Positions 10,305 to 47,519 of a DNA stretch of 64,000 nucleotides are shown here, piece after piece. Position numbers and translations under genes: made by a program. Numbering within the stretch: the stretch's first letter is position 1; every line of letters starts with the position of its first letter. Under the pieces are notes generated by a model. The model did no database searches. It was not told the origin of the DNA and saw only the letters and a list, made by a program, of their open reading frames with translations. Source of the stretch: a phage; assembly GCA_011911785.1 (NCBI GenBank), contig GCA_011911785.1_4084.1; one strand, given 5' to 3'.

Positions 10305-10305
10305 T

Positions 10306-21991: not shown

Positions 21992-22020
21992 ATGCCCGAC
22001 TTTGTTCGGGCATCTTTTTA
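21992..22020 (+). terminator. rho-independent terminator
   Basis: Perfect stem ATGCCCGA/TCGGGCAT, loop CTTTGT, then CTTTTT. Confidence 0.7.
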
Positions 22021-22031
22021 AGGAAAAGTAA

Positions 22032-22304
22032 ATGGACTATCGAGTACTGAATAGAACATATAAAGCTTTATACAAAACATATATTGAAAGTAAAGTACAT
22101 AATCCTATCATTTATAAAAATCCAGTTTATATTATATGGAATGAATATTTTACAATGATTCAAAATTACTTTTACTCTAACGAAATCTTTATAGATGGTG
22201 AAATGCGTAAGCTAACACGCGTTGATAGTATAGGTGGTGAAATTGTGTTATTCTATACTGATTCTATTATTGGACAACAATCTATAAATTTAGAGATATT
22301 ATAA
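22032..22304 (+). CDS. hypothetical small protein, family B (~90 aa paralogs)
   Basis: 90 aa; first of five tandem copies. Confidence 0.6.
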   Translation: MDYRVLNRTYKALYKTYIESKVHNPIIYKNPVYIIWNEYFTMIQNYFYSNEIFIDGEMRKLTRVDSIGGEIVLFYTDSIIGQQSINLEIL

Positions 22305-22570
22305 TGAATTATAAGGATTTACATTTCACCTATAAACTAACATTTTATATGTATCGTTACGCTGATAACAACTTAATGGATAATGCATTTTATCATCGTT
22401 TGTGGAGTGATTATATAAAATCTTTACGTGAACATTTTATAGGTACTATAATTCAATACGAAGGTAAAACAGTAAAAATATTTCAAGTTGATAGTTACAA
22501 CGGGGATCTATGCTTCAGGGGTAGAGATTCTAGTGATGGATTACATGAGATTTATATCTATGAATTATAA
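22304..22570 (+). CDS. hypothetical small protein, family B
   Basis: 88 aa; MNYKDLHFTYKL N-terminus, REHFIGTIIQYEGK motif. Confidence 0.65.
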   Translation: MNYKDLHFTYKLTFYMYRYADNNLMDNAFYHRLWSDYIKSLREHFIGTIIQYEGKTVKIFQVDSYNGDLCFRGRDSSDGLHEIYIYEL

Positions 22571-22835
22571 GGATTTACAATTCACGTACAAAATTCTTCA
22601 TGAACAATATGAACGTGGTGAAGGAATATTAACTTACGATGAACGAGATTTTTTTCTTACATTGTGGTGTGAATATTTGGCAATGATTAACGAGATTTTT
22701 GTTGATAAAGAATATATGATTGACGACATGACTGTACGTATTATCAGAATTAAAAGTTATAATGGAAGTCTTGTTGGAATTTACTATAACAATGAAAAGG
22801 CGAAAAGCGGATTTGTTGATTTGGAGTACCTATGA
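22561..22835 (+). CDS. hypothetical small protein, family B
   Basis: Start moved to ATG 22561 (MNYKDLQFTYKI, DNA-level similar to start of 22304 copy); 91 aa. Confidence 0.6.
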
Positions 22836-23095
22836 ACTATCATGATTTACAATTCACATATCAACTTTTATATGATGATATGAATAACGAATTAGGTTTC
22901 TACTATGAAGTACGTAATAAAATATGGTCAAATTATCTATCTGAGATACAACATCATTTTATAGGACTTCCAATACGTAGAAATAATAAAAACTATCGTT
23001 GTACTGATGTAGTAAGTCATAGAGGTAGGTTGCGTTTAGAATTCTACCGCAGAGACGGGGACTTCATTGGTATAAATTTACTGGATTTTAAATGA
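22832..23095 (+). CDS. hypothetical small protein, family B
   Basis: 87 aa; MNYHDLQFTYQL, QHHFIGLPI motif. Confidence 0.65.
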   Translation: MNYHDLQFTYQLLYDDMNNELGFYYEVRNKIWSNYLSEIQHHFIGLPIRRNNKNYRCTDVVSHRGRLRLEFYRRDGDFIGINLLDFK

Positions 23096-23379
23096 TGAAA
23101 AACAACTTAAAGGAAATACAAGTATTTTATAGCTTCTTATACTTGTCATATGTAACAGATGAGTACTATGAAAGTGTGTATTATTTTTTATGGCAACATT
23201 ACCGTACTATAGTAAGAGATTTATATATAGGAAAATCTATCATATCCAATGGTGAAAAATGTACCTGTACTGATGTTGTTAGTTTTAATGGTTCTTTAAC
23301 ACTGTGTTTCAGATGCGATAATAATAGTGGGTCATTTTCATTAAACGTATATCAGTTAGAAGGAATAAATTTTGAATAA
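23092..23379 (+). CDS. hypothetical small protein, family B
   Basis: 95 aa; RDLYIGKSIISNGEK motif. Confidence 0.65.
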   Translation: MMKNNLKEIQVFYSFLYLSYVTDEYYESVYYFLWQHYRTIVRDLYIGKSIISNGEKCTCTDVVSFNGSLTLCFRCDNNSGSFSLNVYQLEGINFE

Positions 23380-23572
23380 GTGTCCATATTGTAACAGTAC
23401 TCAATTAGCTCGTTTCCGCTTAGATTCAGACTGGGCCACTGGTGCTGGGGATTTCTTTCCCATCAATGATGATGCGGAATACACTGAAGAACAGCACAAA
23501 GATTTTGATAAATCATGGCGACCAGACATTGAGTGCATTTATTGCCTTAATTGTGAGCGTGTACATGACTAA
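23372..23572 (+). CDS. zinc-ribbon protein
   Basis: 66 aa; CPYC ... CIYCLNC cysteine pairs. Confidence 0.55.
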   Translation: MNKCPYCNSTQLARFRLDSDWATGAGDFFPINDDAEYTEEQHKDFDKSWRPDIECIYCLNCERVHD

Positions 23573-23828
23573 AGCTGAACTAATAGTTCATACATATAAA
23601 ATGATAGCCAGTACTGAGTTATCCTGTGGTGCAGATAATCCAGTACTGGACTATTTTATAGAATCTTTGAAAGAACATTATATTGGTAAATCACTGATTC
23701 TTAATAATATTAATTTCACTGTAAAGGATGTAGCACCTGGAAAAAACGTACTAATAGTATGTGTTACTTCATCTGATAACCCAGTATACCCAATAACAAT
23801 AATTTTTGAGGTATTAGGTGATTTATGA
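23565..23828 (+). CDS. hypothetical small protein, family B
   Basis: Start at ATG 23565 (ATGACTAA overlap with upstream stop); KEHYIGKSLILNN motif. Confidence 0.55.
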   Translation: MTKAELIVHTYKMIASTELSCGADNPVLDYFIESLKEHYIGKSLILNNINFTVKDVAPGKNVLIVCVTSSDNPVYPITIIFEVLGDL

Positions 23829-24115
23829 ATATCATTTTAATACAGAAAACATATTCTATATTGGTGAAAGATTATTCCATTACTTTCGATTCACAAGAAA
23901 GTGCTCTACATAACCTATACAAAAACGTAACACAAGAATACAGAAATATGTTTTCTGACTTAGTAGTAGGAAGGTATTTCAGTACTAGAAAATATCCAAA
24001 ACTTCAAGCAGAGGATGTTTCTTTTTATTTCAATGGTCATATTACTATTCATAGTTTAGACCAAAATTCACCAACGTACTTAAACTTTTCATTCGATGAG
24101 GTAACCTTTTTATGA
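23825..24115 (+). CDS. hypothetical small protein, family B-like
   Basis: 96 aa; similar size and architecture. Confidence 0.55.
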   Translation: MNIILIQKTYSILVKDYSITFDSQESALHNLYKNVTQEYRNMFSDLVVGRYFSTRKYPKLQAEDVSFYFNGHITIHSLDQNSPTYLNFSFDEVTFL

Positions 24116-24294
24116 GAACATTATTTTTTATCTGGAGTCTTTTTTCTCTTGCAGTACTGACAGTTGCAGGTGCTTATTCATTTTCAACAATGAATACATG
24201 GTATATCAATTTACTATTTCCAATTGTCGGTGTAGGTTTAGGATTTACTTTACATAGTGTATGTAAGGATTTCAATGACAAATCAAACAAATGA
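24112..24294 (+). CDS. small membrane protein
   Basis: 60 aa, two hydrophobic helices. Confidence 0.45.
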   Translation: MRTLFFIWSLFSLAVLTVAGAYSFSTMNTWYINLLFPIVGVGLGFTLHSVCKDFNDKSNK

Positions 24295-24559
24295 AGTACT
24301 TATTGCTGAAACAATGAAGATGATTTATAGTATTACTACAGCACAGAATATGCCCTATCCCATTAAGTCTTTATTGAGGACCGTGTATCTTGTGACTGTG
24401 CAGGAATACTATAAATCCAAGCACAAAAGCATTATTAGTGTTTATCGTGATTATGAAAGGATTCGTATTTTGTACTGGAACAAGAACCGAGTACGTTCTG
24501 AATGTGACCTTGCGGACTTCAAATTAGAGAATCTTTATTGTTATAAAGCGGGACAGTAG
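24257..24559 (+). CDS. hypothetical protein
   Basis: 100 aa ORF; start uncertain. Confidence 0.45.
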   Translation: MYVRISMTNQTNEVLIAETMKMIYSITTAQNMPYPIKSLLRTVYLVTVQEYYKSKHKSIISVYRDYERIRILYWNKNRVRSECDLADFKLENLYCYKAGQ

Positions 24560-25354: not shown

Positions 25355-25633
25355 ATGAATTTACAAAGAGATGTGTGGACATATGAATATCTTTTAGAAC
25401 TTTATGGTGATATGTATCTTAAAAATAAACCATACATAGACGATATAAGGGCTATGATAGATGATTTTTCTTCTGAGTTTATTCCACTTTATACTAATAA
25501 AGAAGTTACACATAAATCAATGAATAAATCAGGTATTATTGATGAAATTGATTTTGATACACATGGTGTGTATTTTTATATTATTTTCTCCAATGATACT
25601 GTTGGTATATACACGTATAAAGAATTAAAATAA
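25355..25633 (+). CDS. hypothetical protein
   Basis: 92 aa ORF followed by terminator. Confidence 0.55.
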   Translation: MNLQRDVWTYEYLLELYGDMYLKNKPYIDDIRAMIDDFSSEFIPLYTNKEVTHKSMNKSGIIDEIDFDTHGVYFYIIFSNDTVGIYTYKELK

Positions 25634-25676: not shown

Positions 25677-25976
25677 ATGGACAAAATACAATTAGTTAGT
25701 AGTACGATAACAATGCTTGCTGATGTTGCCAGATGGAGCAGTGGTGGTTCAGTTAGTACTATGCTCGGTATACTCACGCAATACACCTATACCTGCAATG
25801 CAATGTTATATGGTAAGGAAGTTGAAATTGATGATCCCTATGGAATTCCCATATCATATGACCGAGGTGTAATAAAAAGAGTTACTCTGAGACTAACATA
25901 TCATCCATATTTTGTAGTAGAACTTCCTGATGGAAAATTAAGAGAATATGTTGCTAAAAGGTTAAAACTAAAATGA
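25677..25976 (+). CDS. hypothetical protein
   Basis: 99 aa ORF. Confidence 0.55.
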   Translation: MDKIQLVSSTITMLADVARWSSGGSVSTMLGILTQYTYTCNAMLYGKEVEIDDPYGIPISYDRGVIKRVTLRLTYHPYFVVELPDGKLREYVAKRLKLK

Positions 25977-26551: not shown

Positions 26552-27237
26552 TTAAAGACTTAGACCGAATTTTGTATGTACTAAGGGGTGTAATTACTTT
26601 ACAACCACAGATTAACCGCATGGAGAGAGCCTTTGAATTAAAATCAAGAGAAACTCCATATTCACATATATCAAATGTAGTTGGTTCATTCTGCTCTGAA
26701 GACTCTGCATATGATATATATGTGTGTGAAGTACAGCCCAGTAATGATCTTGGTTTTGCAATCTTCGATAAAAATCAAGTACTGGTCAGTATGTTTCAGT
26801 GTAATAATCCTTTCTGGAAAACATGCCTGTACCCTGATTGGGCTATGCTTGACCCTACGAATAGTAAGATTAAAGTATATGACTCTAAGAATGAAGAAGT
26901 TGTTATTGATTTAGATGAATCAATGACAGAGGAAGAACACTTCCAGCTTATGATGATGCGTGCGATGCCAGACTATGAAGCAATGATTAACACAGTACAA
27001 TACATTAAGGATACGATGAGATCATTGTGTAATCATGAGTTTTGTCATCCAGTATCGTATGAACATTTGGATTTAGATTTCAGTACTATCAAGTTTAAAG
27101 ATAGTGTTATTGAATATATCCAAGAGAACACTAAATTTGATTTTATTAGTACTATGATTAATAATCCTGATACAAATTTCAGACGACAGTACAATGAGTC
27201 TTTATCTAATGGACGTGATACCAGTTGGTGGAAATAA
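26548..27237 (+). CDS. hypothetical protein, family A
   Basis: 229 aa; motif EEEHFQLMMM. Confidence 0.6.
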   Translation: MIKDLDRILYVLRGVITLQPQINRMERAFELKSRETPYSHISNVVGSFCSEDSAYDIYVCEVQPSNDLGFAIFDKNQVLVSMFQCNNPFWKTCLYPDWAMLDPTNSKIKVYDSKNEEVVIDLDESMTEEEHFQLMMMRAMPDYEAMINTVQYIKDTMRSLCNHEFCHPVSYEHLDLDFSTIKFKDSVIEYIQENTKFDFISTMINNPDTNFRRQYNESLSNGRDTSWWK

Positions 27238-27238
27238 T

Positions 27239-27502
27239 ATGAATATCCAAGATAGATTGCAATTGTTGCACACACTTGAAGAAGCTGCTTTTGAACTTGT
27301 TAATAAAATTGCACAAGAACTCCCAAAAGGAACCAACATTCGTGTTCGTGAAATGGATTATTTAACGGGAGAAATTGAAGAAAAAGTTCTAACAGTGATC
27401 AAAGTAACATACTATGAATCAGAGTTATCAATTCAATGTAAGTCAGATAATGGTTACGTTTCCTACTATGGCACAGATGTAGATATAGAGGTAATTAGAT
27501 GA
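27239..27502 (+). CDS. hypothetical small protein
   Basis: Start moved to ATG 27239 just after upstream stop; 87 aa. Confidence 0.5.
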   Translation: MNIQDRLQLLHTLEEAAFELVNKIAQELPKGTNIRVREMDYLTGEIEEKVLTVIKVTYYESELSIQCKSDNGYVSYYGTDVDIEVIR

Positions 27503-28644
27503 GTAATTTACGAGAAATATACAATGATTTAATGGAACTATGTGAATCTAATGATGCATTTTTCTATATAGATCACACAAGCCCAGGTGGTGGTTTATAC
27601 CGTGTATTCACCTATCGTCTGGCATCTTATACTGATTTCACAAATAAAAATGCACTAGAAACTCGTGGTTCTATGTGGGAAATTGATTCCAACGGAATTA
27701 TGATTCGTTGTGCAGCACGTACAATGAAAAAGTTCTTCAATGCATATGAAAACCCTTACACAATGTTCAGTACTGATACTACCTGTGATGATATTGCGGT
27801 TGTAATGCCTAAGCTAGATGGTTCTATCATCAGCACATTCCGTGATAACGATGGTGAAATCCGTTGTAAATCACACACTTCGTTATCGTCTGACCATGCT
27901 ATTAACAGTACTCGCCTTTTGAACGAGAACCAAAATCTCTATCAATACATTGATGAAGCAGACCGTTTGGGCTATACTGTGAATCTGGAATACACAAGCC
28001 CAGAGTATCGAATTGTGTTACCATATCAGGTGGAACAGTTATTTGTTCTTAACGTTCGTCATCGTATTAGTGGTGAGTTGTTATGCGGTAAAGCACTACG
28101 TGATAAGTTTCCATGCCTTTCACAGTACAGTACTAATATGACAGGTAATGACATTCATCATACATTCCCGATTATGCCTACATTTAAAGAGTCAATCGAT
28201 AAAGTACGTTCTATGCTTGACATTGAAGGTTTTGTGTGTATAATGAAAGATGGTACAATGTGCAAAATCAAAACTGACTGGTATTGCTCTTTGCATTTAA
28301 CAAAAGATTCCATTCTTATTGATTCCCATTTATATGAAGCTGTACTGACTGGTGCAAGTGATGACTTAAAACAATTGTTCAGTACTGATACATATGCAAT
28401 GGATAAGATATTAAGAATGGAACAATTGGTATTTTCGTGCTATAATGCTTTACAAGATGAGGTAGAAAGCTTCGTCCATGCATACAAGCACTTAGAGCGA
28501 AAGGAATTCGCACAAAAGGTTCAGCAAGATTTACCTAATGTATTGAACCGACAAGGCTTGGCCTTTGCGTTGTACAATGGCAAAAGTGTCGATTATAAAG
28601 AGACTTTACTAAAGTACTACAAAGATGTACTAAAGGATTTTTAG
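27499..28644 (+). CDS. rnlA: RNA ligase 1 (T4 RnlA-like)
   Basis: 381 aa; N-terminus and KxDG motif (VVMPKLDGSIIS) align with remembered T4 Rnl1 (NLMELC, YRxFxYxxASYxDF, RCxARxMxKFFN, MKDG, KIKxDWY). Confidence 0.9.
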   Translation: MSNLREIYNDLMELCESNDAFFYIDHTSPGGGLYRVFTYRLASYTDFTNKNALETRGSMWEIDSNGIMIRCAARTMKKFFNAYENPYTMFSTDTTCDDIAVVMPKLDGSIISTFRDNDGEIRCKSHTSLSSDHAINSTRLLNENQNLYQYIDEADRLGYTVNLEYTSPEYRIVLPYQVEQLFVLNVRHRISGELLCGKALRDKFPCLSQYSTNMTGNDIHHTFPIMPTFKESIDKVRSMLDIEGFVCIMKDGTMCKIKTDWYCSLHLTKDSILIDSHLYEAVLTGASDDLKQLFSTDTYAMDKILRMEQLVFSCYNALQDEVESFVHAYKHLERKEFAQKVQQDLPNVLNRQGLAFALYNGKSVDYKETLLKYYKDVLKDF

Positions 28645-28673
28645 TACTAACTAGCCCAGCACAAGGAGAAGTG

Positions 28674-28928
28674 ATGGCTAAACCTAAGTATAAAAATGAT
28701 GGTTCCCTTTCTCCTACTGAGTTCAGGAAAATACAACAAGAAATCGATGATTTACAGCACAAACGCTCAATGAAAGGTGTGAAGATTAGTAAGAAGCGAA
28801 TCGAGAATACTTTTGGGTGTAGTAGTACTGAATATAAGAAGAAAAGGAAACCAAAGGATGTTAAGCCGAGAATACATGATGTAACTCGCTATACATCAAA
28901 ACGTGAAAATAAATTCGATCCACTATAA
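28674..28928 (+). CDS. small basic protein, hypothetical
   Basis: AAGGAG RBS; ATG 28674 preferred over GTG 28671; Lys/Arg-rich. Confidence 0.5.
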   Translation: MAKPKYKNDGSLSPTEFRKIQQEIDDLQHKRSMKGVKISKKRIENTFGCSSTEYKKKRKPKDVKPRIHDVTRYTSKRENKFDPL

Positions 28929-28937
28929 GGAGTTCAT

Positions 28938-29174
28938 ATGAAAGTTGAAGTTCAGCATAGTATTGTTCAGGATATGTCAGTGGTTAAGTTTCTTTCTCTG
29001 AAAGATTACTTCAGATGTATCAAGTTCCTTGAAGAATCTCAATTACAGTGGACCCCCTTAAAGTACAGTTCATCCAATGACACTGCTAGTATTCGTTGTG
29101 ATGAAGCTGTACTTGTAAAAATCTCCAAGCGATTTGGAGTTGGGAAATACAATGAAAAACAATCATTCAAGTGA
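28938..29174 (+). CDS. hypothetical small protein
   Basis: 78 aa ORF with GGAG RBS. Confidence 0.5.
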   Translation: MKVEVQHSIVQDMSVVKFLSLKDYFRCIKFLEESQLQWTPLKYSSSNDTASIRCDEAVLVKISKRFGVGKYNEKQSFK

Positions 29175-29406
29175 TTTGTTATATTATAAAGTACTATCAG
29201 AATGTTTGACGGATATATTGTACCGTGAGAGTAATACTCTACGTGAAAAATATATTAACAAAAGAGTACGTTATAAATCATCTTATGATGGGATGAATGT
29301 TTATGGTAAAATCACTAATGTATATGTAGATGATGATTTTACATTGAATATCATTGTCGATAATTGTATTAGTATCTCAATTGATGATATTATTGAGGTA
29401 ATCTAA
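29134..29406 (+). CDS. hypothetical small protein, family B
   Basis: 90 aa; LREKYINKRVRYKSSYDG motif; start uncertain. Confidence 0.5.
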   Translation: MELGNTMKNNHSSDLLYYKVLSECLTDILYRESNTLREKYINKRVRYKSSYDGMNVYGKITNVYVDDDFTLNIIVDNCISISIDDIIEVI

Positions 29407-29717
29407 TGAATAAAGCATTAAAAGAACTTAATAATTTAATGAATGCAGAAATTGAATTAACTAATACTATTTCTGAAATTGTTCATGATATGATTACACA
29501 ATACAAGAAATCACTCATTGGTAAGAAAGTTGAATGCTGGGATTACAACACTAAAACATGGTTCGAAACTATCATTAGTGATGTTAATGTTAAATTTCAT
29601 GTAGTTACTCATCACATTTCTGACGAGTGCTATGTAGAAGTAACTATAGGACACAACACGCGACATGAACGTTTTTCGTGGTACAATCTAAAGAATGTGA
29701 AATTTATTGAGGATTAA
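29406..29717 (+). CDS. hypothetical small protein, family B
   Basis: 103 aa; QYKKSLIGKKVECWD motif. Confidence 0.6.
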   Translation: MNKALKELNNLMNAEIELTNTISEIVHDMITQYKKSLIGKKVECWDYNTKTWFETIISDVNVKFHVVTHHISDECYVEVTIGHNTRHERFSWYNLKNVKFIED

Positions 29718-30650
29718 ATGCCAACTATTACACTAACAGTTGGATTGCCAGGATGTGGTAAAACCACGTGGGCAGTGCAAGAAATTAAAAAAGCAAAGTC
29801 CAAGACTATCAACATCAACCGTGATGATATTCGAGAGTCTATGGCTGGGTCACATGATGCTTATAAATTCACTGATGCGAACGAGAAGTACGTAACTAAT
29901 CAACAGTTCAGTGCAGCAAACGCCGCAGCAGCGAATGGATGGAACATTATTGTGTCCGATACGAACCTGAAACAAGGTTTTCGTGATGAATGGAAACGTT
30001 GGGCTAAAGATAATGGTTATGATTACAAAGAAAAGAACTTCTATGATGATTTTGTGCCTAATGAAGACCGTGGTGCAGATGTTCATGAATTCTTTAAGAT
30101 TAAAGAGTTCGTAAAACTTTGTAAGAAATATAACCTCCAGCGTGAGCGTTCAGTTCAAGATGATATCATTGACACAATGGCAGATACGTACTATTATAGA
30201 AAGGCATTACACATTGGTTACTATGGTAATGCACGTGAAGCTGCTATCATTGTTGATATCGACGGTACTCTTGCTCATAAGTGGGGACGTAACCCGTTTG
30301 ATGAAAGTACTGTCCTTCAGGATACACCAGATGAAGAAGTAATTCTGTCTGTCATTGCTGAGGCTGTTTTCCATAAGCGTAAGGTAATCGTCATGAGTGG
30401 GCGTACTGAAGGGTGTCGTGCTGATACTGAACAGTGGCTTAAGAATTGGGGCATTCCCTACGATGTATTGTTAATGCGAGCTATCGATGATAAACGTCCT
30501 GATGATGTTGTCAAATTCGAGTTGTATATGAATAACGTTGTTAATCATTACGATGTTAAGAAAGTATTTGATGACAGGGCCGCCGTTGTATTCATGTGGC
30601 GTAAGCTACTAGGCTTGAAAGTATTTCAGGTGGAACCTGGACTATTTTGA
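29718..30650 (+). CDS. pseT: polynucleotide 5'-kinase / 3'-phosphatase (T4 PseT-like)
   Basis: 310 aa; P-loop GLPGCGKTTWA, NINRDDIRES, HAD-phosphatase DIDGTLA; aligns along length with remembered T4 Pnk. Confidence 0.9.
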   Translation: MPTITLTVGLPGCGKTTWAVQEIKKAKSKTININRDDIRESMAGSHDAYKFTDANEKYVTNQQFSAANAAAANGWNIIVSDTNLKQGFRDEWKRWAKDNGYDYKEKNFYDDFVPNEDRGADVHEFFKIKEFVKLCKKYNLQRERSVQDDIIDTMADTYYYRKALHIGYYGNAREAAIIVDIDGTLAHKWGRNPFDESTVLQDTPDEEVILSVIAEAVFHKRKVIVMSGRTEGCRADTEQWLKNWGIPYDVLLMRAIDDKRPDDVVKFELYMNNVVNHYDVKKVFDDRAAVVFMWRKLLGLKVFQVEPGLF

Positions 30651-30660
30651 TTATTACAAA

Positions 30661-30688
30661 GGGATCAGTACTGATCCCTTTTCTTTTA
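30661..30688 (+). terminator. rho-independent terminator
   Basis: Perfect palindrome GGGATCAGTACTGATCCC followed by TTTTCTTTT. Confidence 0.7.
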
Positions 30689-30702
30689 ATTTAGGTGATA
30701 TA

Positions 30703-30963
30703 ATGGATAATAGTTATGATGTACATTTCAAACAATGCCAGTTGGTTTTACACTCCCTAATGGAAGAGTTGCGAATCAAGTACATAGGCAAAATTGCTAC
30801 ATGTTTATCAACTGGAAGACGTGGGCAAATTGTAGAGATTTATTATTCTCCACTTAGTGATGAAATTAAAATAAAAGCTAAAATATTCCTAACTGGATCT
30901 AACGATTTCTTGGGTGAACATATGGTAAAAATTATCTCTGAATTATCTATATCGGATGAATAA
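30703..30963 (+). CDS. hypothetical small protein, family B
   Basis: 86 aa; LRIKYIGKIATC motif. Confidence 0.6.
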   Translation: MDNSYDVHFKQCQLVLHSLMEELRIKYIGKIATCLSTGRRGQIVEIYYSPLSDEIKIKAKIFLTGSNDFLGEHMVKIISELSISDE

Positions 30964-30965
30964 AC

Positions 30966-31232
30966 ATGAATATTAATATAGATTTCCAATTTGTTAATTC
31001 ACATATTCAAGTACTGAAAAATTTAGTAAAGCAACTATCAGAAAAATATAAAGATACATATGTTAAATGTGTCTATGATACAAGTGACTGGGAACGCATT
31101 ATTAAAATTGATTCAGTATATCTTGATACTAACAATAATATAGTTGTATCTGGCGTTGATATGTATGGGCATAGATACCAATTCACAACGCGAGCAACAA
31201 TAACTACTGTGGATGGATATGAATACGAATGA
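30966..31232 (+). CDS. hypothetical small protein, family B
   Basis: 88 aa. Confidence 0.55.
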   Translation: MNINIDFQFVNSHIQVLKNLVKQLSEKYKDTYVKCVYDTSDWERIIKIDSVYLDTNNNIVVSGVDMYGHRYQFTTRATITTVDGYEYE

Positions 31233-31518
31233 ATTCCAAGCATTATTGAAAACATTATATCTTCTTAAAGAAGAATCTCTTGCAATGTATAATGAAAAAC
31301 AATACAAGTTTGAAGAACAACTCATTCATTTTCATGATGAATATCTTGACTTTTTGAATAAAAAATACTCAAATGTTCAGTGCAAATATCGAGGTAGTGA
31401 TGTTATTATTACCAAAATCGAATCCAGTACTTACGGATATCCATACCTTTGTTGCAAATATATCCCAAGTAATATAACATTTCGCTCAAGAATGTATTCG
31501 AGGTTTATTTTTTCATGA
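31213..31518 (+). CDS. hypothetical small protein, family B
   Basis: 101 aa; start 31213 or 31219. Confidence 0.5.
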   Translation: MDMNTNEFQALLKTLYLLKEESLAMYNEKQYKFEEQLIHFHDEYLDFLNKKYSNVQCKYRGSDVIITKIESSTYGYPYLCCKYIPSNITFRSRMYSRFIFS

Positions 31519-31796
31519 ATAATGATTCATTGAAGTTTTTTTATTATCATTATCGTATTTTACGTAGTTTATATTTTTCAGAATCCGATGAAAGATTACT
31601 AACATCATTATCAGTACTGATGGATAATTACGAGAACGAATTATCAAAAGTGGTTTTTGGTGTCAATGTTCTAGATGATACCGATTTAACATGGACAATT
31701 ATTGAAGTGGCGACCTGGAATGGTAATATTTTGTACAGGTGCGAACGAGCAGGTTTTTTATGGGATGCAACATATGACGAGATTAGAATTGTATGA
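31515..31796 (+). CDS. hypothetical small protein, family B
   Basis: 93 aa. Confidence 0.55.
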   Translation: MNNDSLKFFYYHYRILRSLYFSESDERLLTSLSVLMDNYENELSKVVFGVNVLDDTDLTWTIIEVATWNGNILYRCERAGFLWDATYDEIRIV

Positions 31797-32073
31797 CAGG
31801 CAAGTGAAATTGATAAGAGATACTCGTCGTTTCTTTCATACTCAATTAGTAGACCCATGTTATGATATTTCCGATTTCCTTGAAACCTATCTCCTTGATC
31901 TAACTACACCACTGCTTAAAAAATACGTAGGCACAAAAGCTATATATCTTGGAAGAGAAGTTGAAATTACCAACATATCATATTCTTATGGGGCATACAT
32001 GTATACGGCAAAATCTGATAATGGACAAAGATATTATGCAATACGATCAAGAGAACTTACGATTATTGGATAG
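31771..32073 (+). CDS. hypothetical small protein, family B
   Basis: Start uncertain (track 31702; internal ATG 31771 chosen); LLKKYVGTKAIYLG motif. Confidence 0.45.
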   Translation, partial: HMTRLELYDRQVKLIRDTRRFFHTQLVDPCYDISDFLETYLLDLTTPLLKKYVGTKAIYLGREVEITNISYSYGAYMYTAKSDNGQRYYAIRSRELTIIG

Positions 32074-32365
32074 GCATCTTGCTATTCTTATCGACCTTGT
32101 GATGAAAAGTGATGTAAAAATTTTTGAAAGTAGATTTCTTGAGGATTATAAAACACAATTACAAGAACTGTACAAAGGTAAAAAAGTATTACTTAGTACT
32201 GGTGACTATGGTAAAATTGAGTACGTGTATTATGAATGGAAAAAGGTTATATATTTTATAAAAACCAAAATAAAATACCAAAATAAAACAAGAACCTATA
32301 AAGCATATTACGATTCAAATGAGATAGAGATTATATATGACCAACACGTTAATAACAAAAAGTGA
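32038..32365 (+). CDS. hypothetical small protein, family B
   Basis: Start trimmed to ATG 32038; ELYKGKKVLLSTGDYG motif. Confidence 0.45.
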
Positions 32366-32660
32366 ATTAGATTATTTGAATTATATAAACAGATACTTTC
32401 TGATTCTATATAATATACTTCTTGAAGAACAATGCACTAAATCAAACCATCAGTTATATAACTATATTAACTGTATAATTAGTGAAATATATGAATCATT
32501 GGAAAAGAGATTTAAGTACAGAACTATTAAGTGCGAAGATGATATTGTATATATTCATGGTGTTTTTGGTACAGGATATGGAATATTCGTTGATTATAAA
32601 ATACACCCATTTGATCCGTACATAGAAAATAGTATGTACATAGAAGAGATTGAACTATGA
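32337..32660 (+). CDS. hypothetical small protein, family B
   Basis: 107 aa. Confidence 0.55.
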   Translation: MTNTLITKSELDYLNYINRYFLILYNILLEEQCTKSNHQLYNYINCIISEIYESLEKRFKYRTIKCEDDIVYIHGVFGTGYGIFVDYKIHPFDPYIENSMYIEEIEL

Positions 32661-32974
32661 CACAAGAAGAATATAATAAATTAATAATGTACGAGAATCA
32701 TTTTAATTATTGTCTGAAATGGTTATTGTACATTGATAACGTTGAGATGGATATGTACAGAAAAGAGGTGAATAAACGTGTTAAAGATTTCTATTACGAA
32801 TTGACTGATCTTTTTTATAATAATGTAGTATATGAAGCAAATACCAGTCGTGATTATGACCTTTATATCAAGCAAATATGGGGTACTGACTACGGTCTGA
32901 TGATTGATTGCAGTACTGGTCCTAATATAGACAGACCCAGTACTACATTGTATCTGGATGAGATTTTCATATGA
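32657..32974 (+). CDS. hypothetical small protein, family B
   Basis: 105 aa. Confidence 0.55.
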   Translation: MTQEEYNKLIMYENHFNYCLKWLLYIDNVEMDMYRKEVNKRVKDFYYELTDLFYNNVVYEANTSRDYDLYIKQIWGTDYGLMIDCSTGPNIDRPSTTLYLDEIFI

Positions 32975-33273
32975 ATGAACTATTACTTTGTCATAAAACA
33001 TACATTATGCTATTCAGAACGTGCCATGATATGCGAATTGAAGGTATACTAGACTACCCAACTATGATGATTAACTTCAGGGTGTTAATGGATTCATATT
33101 CACAATCTGTCATTGATGCATTTGAAGGTAGAGAAATAAAGTTCAAAAATGCCAGGACAAATAATGAGCTATGTGATACAATTAAATCAGTGGGGATTTC
33201 GGTTCCAAATGTGTACGTAATCCCATTGATGTACGGAAAAGTAGTATCCACTAACGAAATTATTAGTATATGA
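32971..33273 (+). CDS. hypothetical small protein, family B
   Basis: 100 aa. Confidence 0.55.
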   Translation: MNELLLCHKTYIMLFRTCHDMRIEGILDYPTMMINFRVLMDSYSQSVIDAFEGREIKFKNARTNNELCDTIKSVGISVPNVYVIPLMYGKVVSTNEIISI

Positions 33274-33569
33274 TTAAAACATTATATGAAGCAGAAGAAA
33301 CATATAAACTTCTGTGGGAAACTTTTATTTTTGACAAATACTATAATAGAACTGAATGGTTAGAGGTAAGTAAAATATATCTTCAAATTTTAAATGATTA
33401 TTTTTGTCCGTTAGTTGCTGAATGTAAAAATAATCCAATTGAAGAAATTAATATAATCGAAATAGTAGATGGGTTTGGTGCGTGGTTGATATACCAAGAC
33501 AACTATCACTTTTCTAATTATATCGAAGATATCGGTAAAATAACTGTAATTAAAGGAGTCATACTATGA
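33270..33569 (+). CDS. hypothetical small protein, family B
   Basis: 99 aa. Confidence 0.55.
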   Translation: MIKTLYEAEETYKLLWETFIFDKYYNRTEWLEVSKIYLQILNDYFCPLVAECKNNPIEEINIIEIVDGFGAWLIYQDNYHFSNYIEDIGKITVIKGVIL

Positions 33570-34180
33570 TTTATGCACTATACGTACTATACGTACTTGG
33601 TCTGGTTATTGGTTGGTTTTTGGCAAAATCTTACAACCGTAATGCACTGGCATACACAGTATTTGGTATTATTTTTACGCCAGTACTAGAACTAGGTTTA
33701 CTCATTATTATGGGTCGCCGTGACATGACACCAGTCATTGACGATAATCGTGATAAAGCAGTACATGATGTACCAGTTTTTGAAGGATATACGCCAACTT
33801 TAACAGTTGATGACGTTTACATTGATGGTGCTGAAGAAGTTAAATCAGTTCAGGAAGAAGTTGAAGAAGTTCCAGTAAAAGAAGAACCACAACCAAAAGC
33901 ATCAACAACTAAAACAAAAGCAAAAACTTCTAAGAAAACAAAAGGTCGCAAGACTAGCACTAAAAATACCAAAAAAACCAGTACAACTCGCAAAAGCACT
34001 AAAACTGATAAGGAAGCATCTTCCAGTACTACCAGTACTGATGATGGTACAAGCACTGTTCTACTGACAGCAGCAACAACTGCCGCAATTATCAGTACTT
34101 CATCCTATAGCGACTCATCTTCCTCTTATGACAGTGGCTCTTGTGATAGTTCAAGCTCAAGTTCAGGAAGCTGTGATTAA
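33566..34180 (+). CDS. membrane protein with Lys/Thr/Ser-rich low-complexity tail
   Basis: 204 aa; two N-terminal hydrophobic helices; KASTTKTKAKTSKKTKGRKTSTK and Ser-rich C-terminus. Confidence 0.6.
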   Translation: MIYALYVLYVLGLVIGWFLAKSYNRNALAYTVFGIIFTPVLELGLLIIMGRRDMTPVIDDNRDKAVHDVPVFEGYTPTLTVDDVYIDGAEEVKSVQEEVEEVPVKEEPQPKASTTKTKAKTSKKTKGRKTSTKNTKKTSTTRKSTKTDKEASSSTTSTDDGTSTVLLTAATTAAIISTSSYSDSSSSYDSGSCDSSSSSSGSCD

Positions 34181-34524
34181 TGGTTCCGTTATCATCTGAA
34201 CTAAGGTACTTCGAATCTCTCCTTGATCTTCAATCAGAATTCGTTAGTACCTTAAAAAATAAATTAATAGGCAAAAAAGTAAAATTCACTCAAGAGTATA
34301 TTGACCACATCAATAAGGCTAAGGAGGATGAAGTAGATTCTGACTGGATTTATTGTGATGATGAAGCTTCTCATATCAACGAAAATACAGTTATGTTTAT
34401 TACTTTGTTGCGAGTAAAGAATTCATCAATCTATGTTGATGTTGAATATGAAAATCCAAAAAGTTCTGAATGGTACGGATTCACTTACCGTTTAGATCGT
34501 TTAGAACTAATAGAAGAGGAATAA
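34180..34524 (+). CDS. hypothetical small protein, family B
   Basis: 114 aa; LKNKLIGKKVKFTQ motif. Confidence 0.6.
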   Translation: MVPLSSELRYFESLLDLQSEFVSTLKNKLIGKKVKFTQEYIDHINKAKEDEVDSDWIYCDDEASHINENTVMFITLLRVKNSSIYVDVEYENPKSSEWYGFTYRLDRLELIEEE

Positions 34525-34767
34525 ATGATTTTATTTTTTGCTTTGTATGGTGTAGGAGTACTGAGTACATTTATCAGTACTTTTCTTATCATCAATTGGG
34601 GTTCTTTTAAAGATACCCCTACCACAATGATTAATATTAGTACCTGCTCTATGTTATCAGTACTGTGGCCTGTGTCGTTGGTGTATCTTTTCATTTCAAT
34701 CTGTAAAGATTTTTACGATACACTAACAAAATTCAAGAAGAAGAAACATGACAAAGACGGAAATTGA
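34525..34767 (+). CDS. small membrane protein
   Basis: 80 aa, two hydrophobic helices. Confidence 0.5.
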   Translation: MILFFALYGVGVLSTFISTFLIINWGSFKDTPTTMINISTCSMLSVLWPVSLVYLFISICKDFYDTLTKFKKKKHDKDGN

Positions 34768-35002
34768 ACAGTTAAAGATGTTACAATCGTTATCTGATGA
34801 TTTTGTCCAACGTGCTAAGCACAAATATATTGGTCAAGAAATTCTTCTTAAACACTCCAGAGGTTGGCAAAAAATATGCATAAGAGATATGGGAACATAT
34901 TATGGTGATGTGCGATATTACGTAGATTGCTATGTTAATGACCAAATTGCCAATACTCAAGTTGTCACCTATGATAAAATTATATGGATTAAAGAACAAT
35001 GA
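34748..35002 (+). CDS. hypothetical small protein, family B
   Basis: 84 aa; RAKHKYIGQEILLK motif. Confidence 0.6.
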   Translation: MTKTEIEQLKMLQSLSDDFVQRAKHKYIGQEILLKHSRGWQKICIRDMGTYYGDVRYYVDCYVNDQIANTQVVTYDKIIWIKEQ

Positions 35003-35742
35003 AACATTTCTTAGAAGTAACAGTTCCTGATGAAAAAGATTTGTATATAGTAGGAGACATTCACGGTAATGCAAAACTATGGGAACATACCAAGAAAGAA
35101 TTTGGTATTACTCCTGAAGATTATGTATTCAGTTTAGGCGATTTAATTGACAGAGGTGAGCAAAGTGCTCACCTTTTGTTTGAGTTTTTATTCGCTGAGA
35201 ATCGATATATGATCATGGGCAATCATGAATCGATGTGTGTTGATTCTGCAACTCATCGTGACTGGTATCATTGCTGGACACAGAATGGGGGCGATAAGTT
35301 CCTGGAAGAAGTTGGTGTATCAGGAGTGGAATTCTTCCGTCAGTACTTGAACCAGCTACCTATGATTATCCAAATCAATCACAGAGGACTCAAGATTGGC
35401 CTCGTACATGCAAGTGTAGACCTTAAGCACACTGACTGGAATAAGTTCATTACTGGGACAAAATCAATGTCCAATGATACAATTGAGTCATGCCTATGGG
35501 ACAGAAAGACATTTGATTTCTGTAAAGCCAACAACGTCTTTAATGCATCACGTATTACCAACGTAGATTATGTACTTAGTGGGCATACTGCCGTGTTTGA
35601 TCCCCTCATTTATGGTAACCGTATCTGGATTGACAGTCAGTTTCTTACTGGTGATTTGACTATTGCTACCCCACAAGGTGGTAAGATGCGTTATTTGCGT
35701 AAAGAAAAAGACGAATATTCATTTAGTCGATTCAAAAGGTAA
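34999..35742 (+). CDS. serine/threonine protein phosphatase (lambda-PPase / calcineurin-like metallophosphoesterase)
   Basis: 247 aa; GDIHGN, GDLIDRG and GNHE metallophosphatase motifs in canonical order. Confidence 0.85.
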   Translation: MKHFLEVTVPDEKDLYIVGDIHGNAKLWEHTKKEFGITPEDYVFSLGDLIDRGEQSAHLLFEFLFAENRYMIMGNHESMCVDSATHRDWYHCWTQNGGDKFLEEVGVSGVEFFRQYLNQLPMIIQINHRGLKIGLVHASVDLKHTDWNKFITGTKSMSNDTIESCLWDRKTFDFCKANNVFNASRITNVDYVLSGHTAVFDPLIYGNRIWIDSQFLTGDLTIATPQGGKMRYLRKEKDEYSFSRFKR

Positions 35743-35747
35743 TTATT

Positions 35748-36026
35748 ATGCATGACATGATTGATAGTGCATTAACCGAATTTAACTTTTTTAAAAAATC
35801 ACTCGATACAATAATCAATGATACCAACCAACAAATGAAAGACCATTTAAGTGATAAATTGGTTGGTCGTTGGGTTGAGCTACCATATATAGATGGAACT
35901 ACTGTTGGTGTGATTCATAGAATTGTAACAATTCATGAAGTGAAGGTGTATGTTGAAATTCTGGTTGACAATGAAACTAACAAATGTTTTGTACAATTAA
36001 GCACTGAAGATTTAACTTTTTTATAA
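35748..36026 (+). CDS. hypothetical small protein, family B
   Basis: 92 aa; LSDKLVGRWVEL motif. Confidence 0.55.
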   Translation: MHDMIDSALTEFNFFKKSLDTIINDTNQQMKDHLSDKLVGRWVELPYIDGTTVGVIHRIVTIHEVKVYVEILVDNETNKCFVQLSTEDLTFL

Positions 36027-36035
36027 GGATATAAA

Positions 36036-36263
36036 ATGAAAGTAATTTATGTTCAGGTTGAAAAATATCAAACTGAAGATGGTCGCATTTTTGATTCAGC
36101 TAAACAAGCTGAGCATCATGAACGTATTATTTCTGGTGTTCGTCGCATTTGTCCTAAATGTAACGGAACACAACAAGTTCCCGATGAAGAATTTCGTCGC
36201 TATTATGCATGTCCAGATTGTGATGGTAAAGGATATGTAGAAAAACAAGAGGTATGGAAGTGA
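36036..36263 (+). CDS. zinc-finger protein (DnaJ-type CxxCxGxG repeats)
   Basis: 75 aa; CPKCNGTQ and CPDCDGKG. Confidence 0.6.
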   Translation: MKVIYVQVEKYQTEDGRIFDSAKQAEHHERIISGVRRICPKCNGTQQVPDEEFRRYYACPDCDGKGYVEKQEVWK

Positions 36264-36673
36264 AACTATATTGCTTAACAAACATGTACTGTCAGGGTGT
36301 TCAGGCTGGCATTCAGGCATTTCATGCTGGTATTAAACTCGTCAAAGATTATGAAGGTTCAGTATTCAGTACTCTAATCGATGAATGGTATAATGAGCAC
36401 GAAACTATTGTAATTCTCAATGCTGGCAACCAAGATAAATTAACCACTCATTACGAGAATCTATCCAAACAGGGCAAGGTTCCATTTGCTAAATTCAATG
36501 AACCAGGTTTGAACGATACCCTCACTAGTGTAGCAGTACTATGCACTGAAGAAATGATTGATGACATGGCACTGATGCGTACTAACGACCCAATGACTGA
36601 TTTACAGCTATGTCACAAATACGGTCATATGTACGAAACACTAAAAGCTATGAGTACAATGAGGACTATTTGA
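36254..36673 (+). CDS. hypothetical protein
   Basis: 139 aa ORF. Confidence 0.6.
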   Translation: MEVKLYCLTNMYCQGVQAGIQAFHAGIKLVKDYEGSVFSTLIDEWYNEHETIVILNAGNQDKLTTHYENLSKQGKVPFAKFNEPGLNDTLTSVAVLCTEEMIDDMALMRTNDPMTDLQLCHKYGHMYETLKAMSTMRTI

Positions 36674-37869
36674 TGAATTTTCCTGAAAAGATTTTCGTCG
36701 CAAGACGTTTTGTTAGTGGGGATCAGGTTGACGGATATATTATCGACGCAACTAAAATGCACACTAAAGCATTTGAAACCAAGAAAGAACGTGTTGAGTA
36801 CTGGGCAAGAACCAATAATATGCCGTCACTTATACTCGACAATGAACCGAAAAAAGGTTTTGCTATTGTTCAAAAATTGATTCACAGTGGGCGTGATACC
36901 TATTTTGTTTGTCGTCACCCAGAAGGATTTGAGTTCAATATCACCGCAAACAATATGCTGGACTTAATCACACACAATGATATCGTTAATGGTGTATTCC
37001 AAGATGCTATGTTCTTTAATAATAATCTTGAACTCATCAATGGTAATACAAAAACATTTGCTAAGATGCAAGAGAAGCAAGAAAAAGCTGAAGAACGTAA
37101 AAGCGTTGTTGGTGAGTTGAAAGTTGGTGATGGATTCCTTTATAACAAAAAAGAGTACTACTATTGTGGTCGAGTTCATGCTCTTTGTTTGAAGAAAACT
37201 AAAGAATTCTCTTTACCTAACAAAAGTTCTTTCTATCATATGGTGTATTGTATCGCTGATGGTACATATGGTGTATGTGCAAGCCTTGACCGTTACGAAT
37301 TAACACCCAGAGCACTCCATAACGTTAAAACGACAATGGAAGCTGAAATTGTTAAAGCAAATGCGTATTTCAATACGTACCGAATGCGAACTGAGAACGC
37401 ATTAGGTGAATGCAATAGACCAGTACTGATCAGTACTAAATCATTTAAAAGTACTGATATGAAAGTAAAATACACTGAAATCACTAAAGACGTTCTTGTT
37501 AATGGTCGTTTCAATGAAAACGTATTATTCATGACTGAACAGAATGGTCAAAAATATCGTGTATTCTTTGGTATTTCAGATAACAACAGCAGAAATTCCT
37601 ATGGATATTATCGCCATGATTATTCTATAGCGTACAAGGGTGATTTTGAAAAATACTGCGGATACCCAGTGGAAGTTGATGCGAATGGTGTAATGTCAAT
37701 GGATGTTGATATCGATAAACATACATCTTTCAATACATGGCGTGGTTATAATTCACCTTTCTATCCACCGACCAAACGATATAGTAATAATTCATCAGAA
37801 TCTAATAAAAAAACTATGGTTCATATTAGCACTGACTGTCCTATTTTTTATGGAACCTATTATCTATAA
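36670..37869 (+). CDS. hypothetical protein
   Basis: Start moved to ATG 36670 (ATGA overlap with upstream stop); about 400 aa. Confidence 0.6.
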   Translation: MMNFPEKIFVARRFVSGDQVDGYIIDATKMHTKAFETKKERVEYWARTNNMPSLILDNEPKKGFAIVQKLIHSGRDTYFVCRHPEGFEFNITANNMLDLITHNDIVNGVFQDAMFFNNNLELINGNTKTFAKMQEKQEKAEERKSVVGELKVGDGFLYNKKEYYYCGRVHALCLKKTKEFSLPNKSSFYHMVYCIADGTYGVCASLDRYELTPRALHNVKTTMEAEIVKANAYFNTYRMRTENALGECNRPVLISTKSFKSTDMKVKYTEITKDVLVNGRFNENVLFMTEQNGQKYRVFFGISDNNSRNSYGYYRHDYSIAYKGDFEKYCGYPVEVDANGVMSMDVDIDKHTSFNTWRGYNSPFYPPTKRYSNNSSESNKKTMVHISTDCPIFYGTYYL

Positions 37870-47511: not shown

Positions 47512-47519
47512 TATTTATA
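47512..47519 (-). promoter_or_regulatory. T4-type late promoter (TATAAATA)
   Basis: Minus strand reads TATAAATA about 37 nt upstream of ATG at 47475. Confidence 0.4.

What the first reader, a model, noticed from the sequence alone, without database searches (positions are those of the whole stretch)
30703..33569. Second expanded family of about 25 paralogous ~90 aa proteins (family B) in several tandem blocks
Blocks at 22032-24115 (five near-identical-length copies with MNYKDLxFTYKL N-termini and DNA-level similarity at their 5' ends), 29134-29717, 30703-33569 (about 11 consecutive genes), 34180-34524, 34748-35002 and 35748-36026 encode 85-115 aa proteins. They share an N-terminal helix followed by a [KR]-[YHK]-[IVL]-G-[KRQ]-x-[IV] motif (KYIGKIAT, EHFIGTII, DLYIGKSI, KLIGKKVK, HKYIGQEI, KLVGRWVE) and a beta-rich C-terminal half, suggesting a small barrel fold. 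They are interleaved with the RNA-repair and DNA-metabolism genes.
Basis: seen in the sequence. Interest (0 to 1): 0.7.

Follow-up and report, generated by a model that had tools for sequence, protein, structure and literature searches.

The report
Expanded small-protein family in jumbo phage
A giant E. coli phage carries more than twenty diverged copies of one small, previously undescribed protein (two helices packed on a small SH3-like beta sheet), arranged in gene arrays that change completely between closely related phages, which suggests a fast-evolving set of accessory proteins whose targets are still unknown.

Summary
The window comes from an Asteriusvirus jumbo coliphage (98.7% identical to phage A4). 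The family is real. Decoy-controlled iterative profile searches link 21 window genes of 84-114 aa between 22032 and 36026. Two more are probable and three are possible, and the other ~50 kb of the window holds none. AlphaFold2 gives a confident model for one member (pLDDT 90.6): a helical hairpin plus a 4-stranded SH3/Tudor-like sheet. No solved structure matches it full length. A second member from the focal block has the same order of elements at lower confidence. There are no Pfam or NCBIfam matches, and PHROGs splits the members into about 10 families of unknown function. The family is confined to RaK2-like jumbo phages: 19-23 linked ORFs per Asteriusvirus, about 9 in RaK2, and 1 each in GAP32 and a Yersinia phage. 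Two arrays (about 22000-23000 and 30700-34700) share no detectable DNA similarity with other Asteriusviruses, although their flanks are 75-93% identical. The genes are under relaxed purifying selection, are absent from a relative's virion proteome, and lack late promoters. Function is unknown. The most likely role is a diversifying set of intracellular binder proteins for host takeover or counter-defence.

The parts
22032..22304 (+). Family member, 90 aa, block A
   Evidence: BLAST and jackhmmer links within block A. Aligned in register in A2. phrog_32291.
22304..22570 (+). Family member, 88 aa, block A; the protein modelled at high confidence
   Evidence: AF2 pLDDT 90.6: H3-18, H24-45, E49-52, E55-65, E68-75, E80-84. 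Its 5' 49 nt are repeated at 22555 and 22827.
22560..22835 (+). Family member, 91 aa, block A
   Evidence: 36% identity to 22304. Included in A2.
22832..23095 (+). Family member, 87 aa, block A
   Evidence: hhalign 99.1% to the 22032 cluster. phrog_21004.
23092..23379 (+). Family member, 95 aa, block A; has YIGKSI
   Evidence: hhalign 98.6% to 22832. Also recovered from the 34748 seed.
23565..23828 (+). Family member, 87 aa, block A; has HYIGKSL
   Evidence: jackhmmer from 22832, 23092 and 34748 seeds with no decoys. phrog_33961.
23825..24115 (+). Family member, 96 aa, block A
   Evidence: jackhmmer from all block A seeds. The BFVD orthologue in slurp01 superposes on the 22304 model with TM 0.87 at 17% identity.
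24275..24559 (+). Probable member, 94 aa
   Evidence: Reached only from the 23565 seed (E 4e-16, no decoys). hhalign 33% to the block A superprofile.
25355..25633 (+).
   Evidence: jackhmmer from the 30703 and 34748 seeds. Scores above all decoys.
25677..25976 (+). Possible member, 99 aa
   Evidence: Only the motif LYGKEV at the expected position. Profile scores fall within the decoy range.
27239..27502 (+).
   Evidence: 31% identity over 84 aa to its positional orthologue RaK2 ORF463. ORF463 is a strong family hit, and its own jackhmmer returns 27239 and 29406 with no decoys.
29152..29406 (+). Family member, 84 aa
   Evidence: jackhmmer from the 29406, 30703 and 34748 seeds.
29406..29717 (+). 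Family member, 103 aa; immediately upstream of the polynucleotide kinase gene; has LIGKKV
   Evidence: Links to 34180, 34748, 35748 and 29152. phrog_31355.
30703..30963 (+). Family member, 86 aa; first gene of the focal array; has KYIGKI; second modelled protein
   Evidence: jackhmmer links to 34180, 34748, 25355, 30966, 29152, 29406 and 32036. AF2 pLDDT 67.5: H4-27, E31-34, E40-51, E54-63, E75-77.
30966..31232 (+). Family member, 88 aa
   Evidence: Recovered from the 34748 and 30703 seeds. phrog_33398.
31219..31518 (+). Family member, 99 aa
   Evidence: Recovered by block A seeds (E 6e-16).
31515..31796 (+). Probable member, 93 aa
   Evidence: Included from the 34748 seed in one pool (E 2.5e-8) but not in the enlarged pool.
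31774..32073 (+). Family member, 99 aa; has KYVGTKA and YLGREV; not annotated in phage A4
   Evidence: Recovered by block A seeds (E 1.7e-15). The ORF is intact in A4.
32036..32365 (+). Family member, 109 aa; has LYKGKKV
   Evidence: Recovered from the 30703 and 34748 seeds.
32337..32660 (+). Family member, 107 aa; paralog of 32657
   Evidence: Paired with 32657. Linked to the superfamily through JNE01 ORF L008_18079-18375.
32657..32974 (+). Family member, 105 aa
   Evidence: Same evidence as for 32337. phrog_34190.
32971..33273 (+). Possible member, 100 aa
   Evidence: Motif FEGREI at position 51 and an N-terminal HKTYIML. Profile scores are in the top ~1% of decoys but not significant. hhalign 7%.
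33270..33569 (+). Possible member, 99 aa
   Evidence: Similar architecture and N-terminal ETYKLLW. Recovered once in a run without decoys. Its own search pulled in decoys. hhalign 0.5%.
34180..34524 (+). Family member, 114 aa; has an acidic insert; KLIGKKV
   Evidence: hhalign 86% over 91 columns to 29406. Also linked by jackhmmer.
34748..35002 (+). Family member, 84 aa; hub sequence; overlaps the Ser/Thr phosphatase start
   Evidence: Its jackhmmer converges on 14 window members drawn from every block, with 0 decoys.
35748..36026 (+). Family member, 92 aa; has KLVGRWV
   Evidence: Recovered from the 29406 seed (E 2e-14). Scores above all decoys with a profile that does not contain it.
21992..22013 (+). 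Terminator-like hairpin at the left border of block A and of the first hypervariable island
30658..30681 (+). Terminator-like hairpin between the kinase gene and the focal array; left border of the second hypervariable island
   Evidence: The same site is annotated as a terminator in phage UE-S1.

Best explanation
Shown: this is one old, strongly diverged paralog superfamily of small soluble proteins. Each member is a two-helix hairpin packed against a short SH3/Tudor-like antiparallel sheet. The genes lie in operon-like arrays among the RNA-repair and DNA-metabolism genes of RaK2-like jumbo phages, and the family is greatly expanded in Asteriusvirus. Some copies sit at fixed, conserved positions, directly upstream of and overlapping the RNA ligase, kinase and phosphatase genes. 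Two arrays are turnover hot spots that are replaced wholesale between close relatives.

Inferred: the proteins are made inside the infected cell before late gene expression and are not built into the virion. The conserved positions are hydrophobic core and turn residues (Tyr, Gly, Lys/Arg, Asp-Val) and the rest varies freely. The fold therefore most likely serves as a rigid scaffold that presents different surfaces. Each paralog would bind a different partner stoichiometrically. The partners are most probably host proteins, for host takeover or neutralisation of defence systems. Duplication and cassette replacement would renew the repertoire.
For: - Homology: converged jackhmmer searches with no reversed decoys, consistent register of helix 2, the G-K junction and strands, controls unlinked, and no match outside 22-36 kb.
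- Fold.
- No enzyme-like conserved polar residues; the conserved columns are hydrophobic plus G, K and D.
- 16 of the 21 members tabulated are acidic, with no transmembrane segments or Cys clusters.
- Real genes: every family ORF that could be compared is intact in A4, and pN/pS is 0.27, compared with 0.10 for neighbouring genes (Fisher p = 0.002).
- Hypervariability: 22000-23000 and 30700-34700 have no nucleotide match to 9 other Asteriusviruses, while flanks are 75-93% identical. The concatenated focal proteins hit only A4 in full. The post-kinase array has 10 genes here against 6-7 in 121Q and JNE01.
- Narrow distribution: 22 clusters among 5.8 billion proteins and 13 among 1.84 billion representatives.
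- Not structural: the phAPEC6 virion proteome lists nothing between gp347 and gp549, and the kinase there is gp372c (PMC7247149).
- Not late: the T4-type late promoter TATAAATA occurs once in 64 kb (12 expected), in front of a minus-strand structural gene.
Against: - There is no direct evidence for any binding partner, for timing of expression, or for a phenotype.
- pN/pS below 1 shows constraint, not positive selection.
- The turnover could reflect dispensability rather than an arms race.
- SH3-like barrels often bind nucleic acids, and the genes sit among RNA and DNA enzymes.
- The conserved copies coupled to enzyme genes could instead be enzyme partners.
- Only one member has a confident structure model. 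Five candidates remain statistically unlinked or borderline.
Confidence: 0.45

Rival explanations
1. The proteins are nucleic-acid-binding small barrels, similar in kind to Sm, KOW or Tudor domains. They would act as RNA or DNA chaperones or specificity factors working with the neighbouring RNA ligase, kinase-phosphatase and DNA ligase.
For: - The sheet is SH3/Tudor-like.
- A conserved Lys/Arg follows the Gly at the start of strand 1.
- Genes are interleaved with RnlA, PseT and DNA ligase, and conserved copies overlap those genes' starts here and in RaK2.
- There are weak sub-threshold hits to eS7, L24 and YajC.
Against: - 16 of the 21 members tabulated are acidic, with net charge down to -11.
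- No Sm, Hfq or KOW profile match even at E = 1.
- More than twenty hypervariable copies are hard to reconcile with a shared generic nucleic-acid ligand.
Confidence: 0.2
2. The conserved copies are small regulatory or adaptor subunits of the enzymes they precede (27239 with RNA ligase, 29406 with the kinase, 34748 and 35748 with the phosphatase). The array copies are redundant or decaying duplicates.
For: - ATGA overlaps or direct adjacency with the enzyme genes.
- The same arrangement occurs in RaK2, where ORF463 overlaps rnlA.
- These copies are conserved at 65-90% nucleotide identity across Asteriusviruses, unlike the arrays.
Against: - Most members are not next to an enzyme gene.
- The array genes are intact and under purifying selection.
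- Tight packing with overlaps is the rule for all genes in this region.
Confidence: 0.15
3. The proteins are packaged internal or decoration proteins, like T4 internal proteins. On this view the conserved N-terminus MNYKDLQFTYK would be a capsid-targeting signal.
For: - The N-termini of three block A copies are conserved even at DNA level.
- From general knowledge, T4 internal-protein loci are also hypervariable.
Against: - No protein from this region is in the phAPEC6 virion proteome.
- The N-terminal residues form helix 1 of the folded domain at pLDDT 89.
- There is no late promoter in the region.
Confidence: 0.04
4. This is not one family. Similar length, composition and helix-then-strand architecture of unrelated small phage ORFs would produce spurious profile links.
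For: - Most pairwise BLAST comparisons are insignificant.
- PHROGs keeps the members in about 10 separate families.
- Direct hhalign of the block A alignment against the alignment of the other members gives only 27% probability.
- The shared C-terminal [DE]-E-I-x-[IL] ending is partly imposed by the ribosome-binding site and ATGA overlap of the next gene.
Against: - Zero reversed decoys entered the converged searches, while control proteins of the same size from the same region stay unlinked.
- Links are reciprocal and come from independent seeds.
- Alignments keep one register.
- A BFVD orthologue of 23825 superposes on the 22304 model at TM 0.87 with only 17% identity.
Confidence: 0.08

Closest known systems
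Hyperplastic regions of T4-type phage genomes (small, non-essential, early ORFs between conserved core genes). This comparison rests on general knowledge, not on a test run here.
   Same: Small ORFs packed between conserved nucleic-acid-metabolism genes, including pseT and rnlA. Content differs between otherwise collinear relatives. The proteins are non-structural.
   Different: Here the ORFs belong to one superfamily of more than 20 paralogs instead of being unrelated ORFans. Stem-loops mark only the left border of each array, not each gene, so there is no per-gene promoter plus stem-loop cassette.
Lineage-specific expansions in jumbo phages, for example the ~35 Zn-ribbon copies of Bacillus phage G (PMC7824862)
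   Same: Dozens of copies of one small domain within a single jumbo-phage lineage, with unknown function.
   Different: The fold is different, with no metal site. The copies are in tandem, translationally coupled arrays. This family is not mentioned in that survey.
PHROG families 32291, 21004, 33961, 28826, 31355, 29135, 37322, 33398, 34190 and 31862
   Same: These are the orthologue groups of individual members.
   Different: All are labelled 'unknown function' and are kept separate in PHROGs. The superfamily relationship between them is shown here.

Membership tests
SH3-like small beta-barrel fold class | About 50-60 residues forming a strongly bent antiparallel sheet of five strands that closes into a barrel | tested here: inconclusive
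KOW motif (Pfam PF00467) | Match to the KOW sequence profile (Gly-rich motif across strands 1-2) | tested here: not met
   No Pfam hit at E <= 1 for the 20 members scanned. L24 appears only at E = 5.5 in the PDB profile search.
Sm/LSm/Hfq | An N-terminal helix, five strands carrying the Sm1 and Sm2 motifs, and a match to the LSM or Hfq profile | tested here: not met
Sm/LSm/Hfq | Assembly into hexameric or heptameric rings | not testable with these tools
   Only monomer prediction was available.
T4-type internal proteins | Packaged in the capsid, with a short cleavable N-terminal targeting sequence | tested here: not met
   The region's proteins are absent from the phAPEC6 virion proteome. The N-terminus is an integral helix of the fold.
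T4-type hyperplastic-region ORFs | Located between conserved core genes and variable among close relatives | tested here: met
   Two islands have no nucleotide similarity to other Asteriusviruses, while flanks are 75-93% identical. Gene number also differs.
T4-type hyperplastic-region ORFs | Each ORF flanked by an early-promoter plus stem-loop cassette | tested here: not met
   Genes overlap by 1-38 nt with no intergenic space. Hairpins occur only at 21992, 25638 and 30658.
The 'family B' superfamily as defined here | Recovered by converged profile search from at least one other member with no decoy included, aligned in register across helix 2, the G-[KR] junction and strands 1-3 | tested here: met
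   Met for 21 genes. Borderline for 24275 and 31515. Not met for 25677, 32971 and 33270.

The most novel reading that the evidence does not exclude
The arrays are a phage-encoded, continually renewed repertoire of single-domain binders built on one helical-hairpin plus SH3-like scaffold. Each paralog would neutralise a different host defence or host-takeover target. Whole arrays would be swapped or re-expanded between strains as host immunity changes. That would make them a new and unusually large family of anti-defence proteins shared by RaK2-like jumbo phages.
Probability: 0.25. Interest if true: 0.8.

Novelty: new variant of a known kind. Interest (0 to 1): 0.5.

Why it matters
More than 80% of jumbo-phage genes have no assigned function. 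Here about 22 of the roughly 45 genes in a 14 kb stretch reduce to one scaffold. That turns many separate 'hypothetical proteins' into one testable question: what does this fold bind? The hypervariable arrays point to where these therapeutic-candidate coliphages differ from each other, and so to possible determinants of host range or defence evasion. A rigid ~90 aa scaffold that tolerates near-total surface change could also interest protein engineers.

Tried and rejected
- Plain BLAST and jackhmmer within the window alone linked only block A and the pair 32337/32657.
- hhalign of shallow orthologue clusters gave mostly weak probabilities. It underestimates true links: for example, block A against 23825 scored only 14%.
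- A mixed MAFFT profile of the 10 focal proteins recovered only near-identical orthologues (8 hits).
- The Foldseek search of the 30703 model against BFVD gave no significant hit (best E 0.04), because the model is only moderately confident.
- The afdb50 library was unavailable.
- Profile searches against PDB sequences, Pfam and NCBIfam found nothing significant.
- An apparent link of 28938-29174 to the family was rejected. It comes from a fused ORF in the low-quality CMSTMSU record.
- The shared C-terminal [DE]-E-I-x-[IL] ending was rejected as evidence of homology, because it overlaps the ribosome-binding site and ATGA start of the next gene.
- The sigma-70-like promoter scan showed no enrichment (77 found, 85 expected), so no promoter is claimed.
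- Literature searches found no description of the family.
Full report
**Source and layout.** The window matches Escherichia phage A4 (Asteriusvirus, 355 kb) at 98.7% over 27000-37000. It matches about 35 other Asteriusvirus jumbo coliphages at 80-90% over only ~40% of that stretch. All genes between 19.7 and 44 kb are on the + strand and tightly packed, mostly with ATGA-type overlaps. The identifiable genes are Dam methylase, a cytidylyltransferase, RNA ligase 1 (27499-28644), polynucleotide kinase/phosphatase (29718-30650), a Ser/Thr phosphatase (34999-35742), a DnaJ-type zinc finger, a Pth2-like hydrolase and DNA ligase. The candidate family fills most of the space between them.

**Checking the observation.** I curated 40 gene calls using the A4 annotation. 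Within the window alone, BLASTP and jackhmmer link only the 22032-24115 block and the pair 32337/32657.

I then fetched the syntenic region from 13 related phages. These were ten Asteriusviruses, Yersinia fHe-Yen9-03, Klebsiella RaK2 and Cronobacter GAP32. I pooled their small ORFs with an equal number of reversed-sequence decoys and ran jackhmmer to convergence at an inclusion E-value of 1e-3.
- Seeds 34748, 22304, 30703 and 29406 each converged with zero decoys. Together they recover 19 window genes.
- 32337 and 32657 join through a JNE01/Turkey5 intermediate that is hit by both sides.
- 27239 joins through its positional orthologue RaK2 ORF463, with 31% identity over 84 aa. ORF463's own search returns 27239 and 29406.
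- 31515 was included in one pool but not in the enlarged pool, and 24275 is reached from a single seed. I call these two probable.
- 32971, 33270 and 25677 have the right size and architecture, and two of them carry the motif at the right place. Their profile scores fall within the decoy range.

Control small proteins from the same region do not link. These are two membrane proteins, two zinc-ribbon proteins, and the genes at 20812, 21098, 28674, 28938 and 36254. They score in the middle of the decoy distribution and below 4% HH probability. An apparent link of 28938 is an artefact of a fused ORF in a poor-quality record. No ORF in the other ~50 kb of the window matches any of the four superfamily profiles. 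A direct profile-profile comparison of the block A alignment with the alignment of the other members aligns helix 2, the G-K junction and strands 1-2 in the same register (P = 7e-4), although the probability is only 27%.

The family therefore has 21 firm, 2 probable and 3 possible members.

**Conserved core.** Across 120 aligned sequences the informative columns are a Tyr (72/120), Ile/Val, Gly (97/120), Lys/Arg and Val/Ile at the end of helix 2 and the start of strand 1. Strand 2 carries an [IV]-x-D-[VI], followed by a Gly turn and an alternating hydrophobic strand 3. The similar C-terminal endings ([DE]-E-I-x-[IL]-stop) coincide with the ribosome-binding site and ATGA overlap of the next gene. 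I do not count them as evidence of homology. The DNA-level 5' similarity is real for three block A copies.

**Fold.** AlphaFold2 on 22304, using 29 sequences, gave pLDDT 90.6. The model has helices 3-18 and 24-45 and strands 49-52, 55-65, 68-75 and 80-84.
- Foldseek against predicted viral structures found full-length matches to Asteriusvirus paralogs. One is a slurp01 protein at 17% identity with TM 0.87. It also matched RaK2 proteins, for example H6X4R2 with TM 0.69.
- A second model, 30703, used an alignment with no block A sequence. It reached only pLDDT 67.5 but shows the same order of elements: a helix, a short strand, two long strands and a last strand. Its own fold search was not significant.
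- Pfam, NCBIfam and PDB-sequence profile searches found nothing.
- PHROGs places the members in about ten separate small families of unknown function.

**Distribution and dynamics.** The block A profile finds only 22 clusters among 5.8 billion proteins and 13 genuine representatives among 1.84 billion, all from ~350 kb contigs. tblastn of the concatenated members hits only the 36 Asteriusvirus records.

At profile level the linked ORFs per locus number 23 in A4, 19-20 in the other well-assembled Asteriusviruses, about 9 in RaK2, and 1 each in GAP32 and the Yersinia phage once the separate 28938 homologues are set aside. These counts include the borderline links. The members always lie at equivalent positions along the methylase, RNA ligase, kinase, phosphatase and ligase backbone.

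A 500-nt sliding comparison shows two islands, about 22000-23000 and 30700-34700, with no detectable nucleotide similarity to any Asteriusvirus other than A4. The flanks are 75-93% identical. The ten concatenated focal proteins match only A4 in full. The post-kinase array has 10 genes here, against 6-7 in 121Q and JNE01. Terminator-like hairpins sit exactly at the left borders of both islands, at 21992-22013 and 30658-30681. The second is annotated as a terminator in UE-S1.

Against A4, the family genes show 26 synonymous and 29 non-synonymous differences (pN/pS 0.27). Neighbouring genes show 125 and 51 (pN/pS 0.10). The difference gives Fisher p = 0.002. All family ORFs are intact in A4. They are therefore real genes under relaxed constraint.

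**Expression class (inferred).** None of the 62 virion proteins of phAPEC6 lies between gp347 and gp549, and the kinase there is gp372c (PMC7247149). The T4-type late promoter TATAAATA occurs once in the 64 kb window, against 12 expected. That single copy lies 37 nt upstream of a minus-strand structural gene. The arrays are thus very probably non-structural and not late-expressed. The sigma-70-like promoter scan was not informative.

**Interpretation.** The shown facts are a single diverged superfamily, its fold class, its confinement to one jumbo-phage clade, its conserved and hypervariable copies, and its non-virion status. The mechanism is inferred. Conservation is limited to core and turn residues, 16 of the 21 members tabulated are acidic, and there are no metal, catalytic or membrane features. 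The most economical reading is a rigid scaffold with freely varying surfaces, that is, stoichiometric binders of diverse partners made early in infection. Host takeover or counter-defence is the most plausible purpose, given the turnover pattern.

Nucleic-acid binding and enzyme-partner roles remain live alternatives, especially for the conserved copies that overlap the starts of the RNA ligase and phosphatase genes or directly abut the kinase gene. A packaged internal-protein role is largely excluded.

No paper in the searchable library describes the family. I rate it an undescribed protein superfamily that fits a known phenomenon: lineage-specific expansion of small accessory genes in plastic regions of large phages.

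Noticed in passing
No member of family B lies among them.
   Followed up: no
window 31774-32073: This 99-aa family member is not annotated in phage A4 (gap between A4_436 and A4_437), although the ORF is intact there. It is probably a missed gene call in the public record.
   Followed up: partly
window 47512-47519 (- strand): TATAAATA, the T4-type late promoter, occurs only once in 64 kb against 12.3 +/- 3.5 expected. The single copy lies 37 nt upstream of the minus-strand structural gene that starts at 47475. Such strong avoidance suggests the motif is a functional late promoter in this phage.
   Followed up: partly
window 23372-23572 and 36036-36263: There are two small zinc-ribbon or zinc-finger ORFs (CxxC...CxxC). 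The first is embedded inside block A and conserved in the Asteriusviruses that have it annotated. The second is annotated as DnaJ-like or anti-TRAP in relatives.
   Followed up: no
window 24112-24294, 33566-34180, 34525-34767: Small membrane proteins are interleaved with the arrays. 33566-34180 has an N-terminal membrane segment and a long Ser/Thr/Lys-rich tail ending in SSSSSSGSCD. It lies inside the second hypervariable island and has a 9-nt indel relative to A4.
   Followed up: no
window 28938-29174: This separate, well-conserved 78-aa protein has orthologues in RaK2, GAP32 and the Yersinia phage. It is not a family B member, and its apparent link came from a fused ORF in the CMSTMSU record.
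   Followed up: yes
window 28217-28244 and 30169-30197 (+ strand): A perfect sigma-70 consensus (TTGACA-16-TATAAT) lies inside the RNA ligase gene, and an 11/12 match lies inside the kinase gene. Both are upstream of small-gene runs. Promoter-like sites are not enriched overall, so their significance is unknown.
   Followed up: no
L012 (RaK2) 5436-15419; L014 (GAP32) 13373-13618; L004 (Yersinia phage) 17597-17926: Profile-detectable family members occur in other genera at syntenic positions. In RaK2 these are ORFs 452, 453, 456, 463, 467, 469, 471, 473 and 479. The arrays therefore predate the split of the RaK2-like jumbo phages.
   Followed up: partly
L009 (phage CMSTMSU): This public record shows many truncated and fused ORFs in the region, consistent with sequencing frameshifts. 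It should not be used for gene-content comparisons.
   Followed up: no
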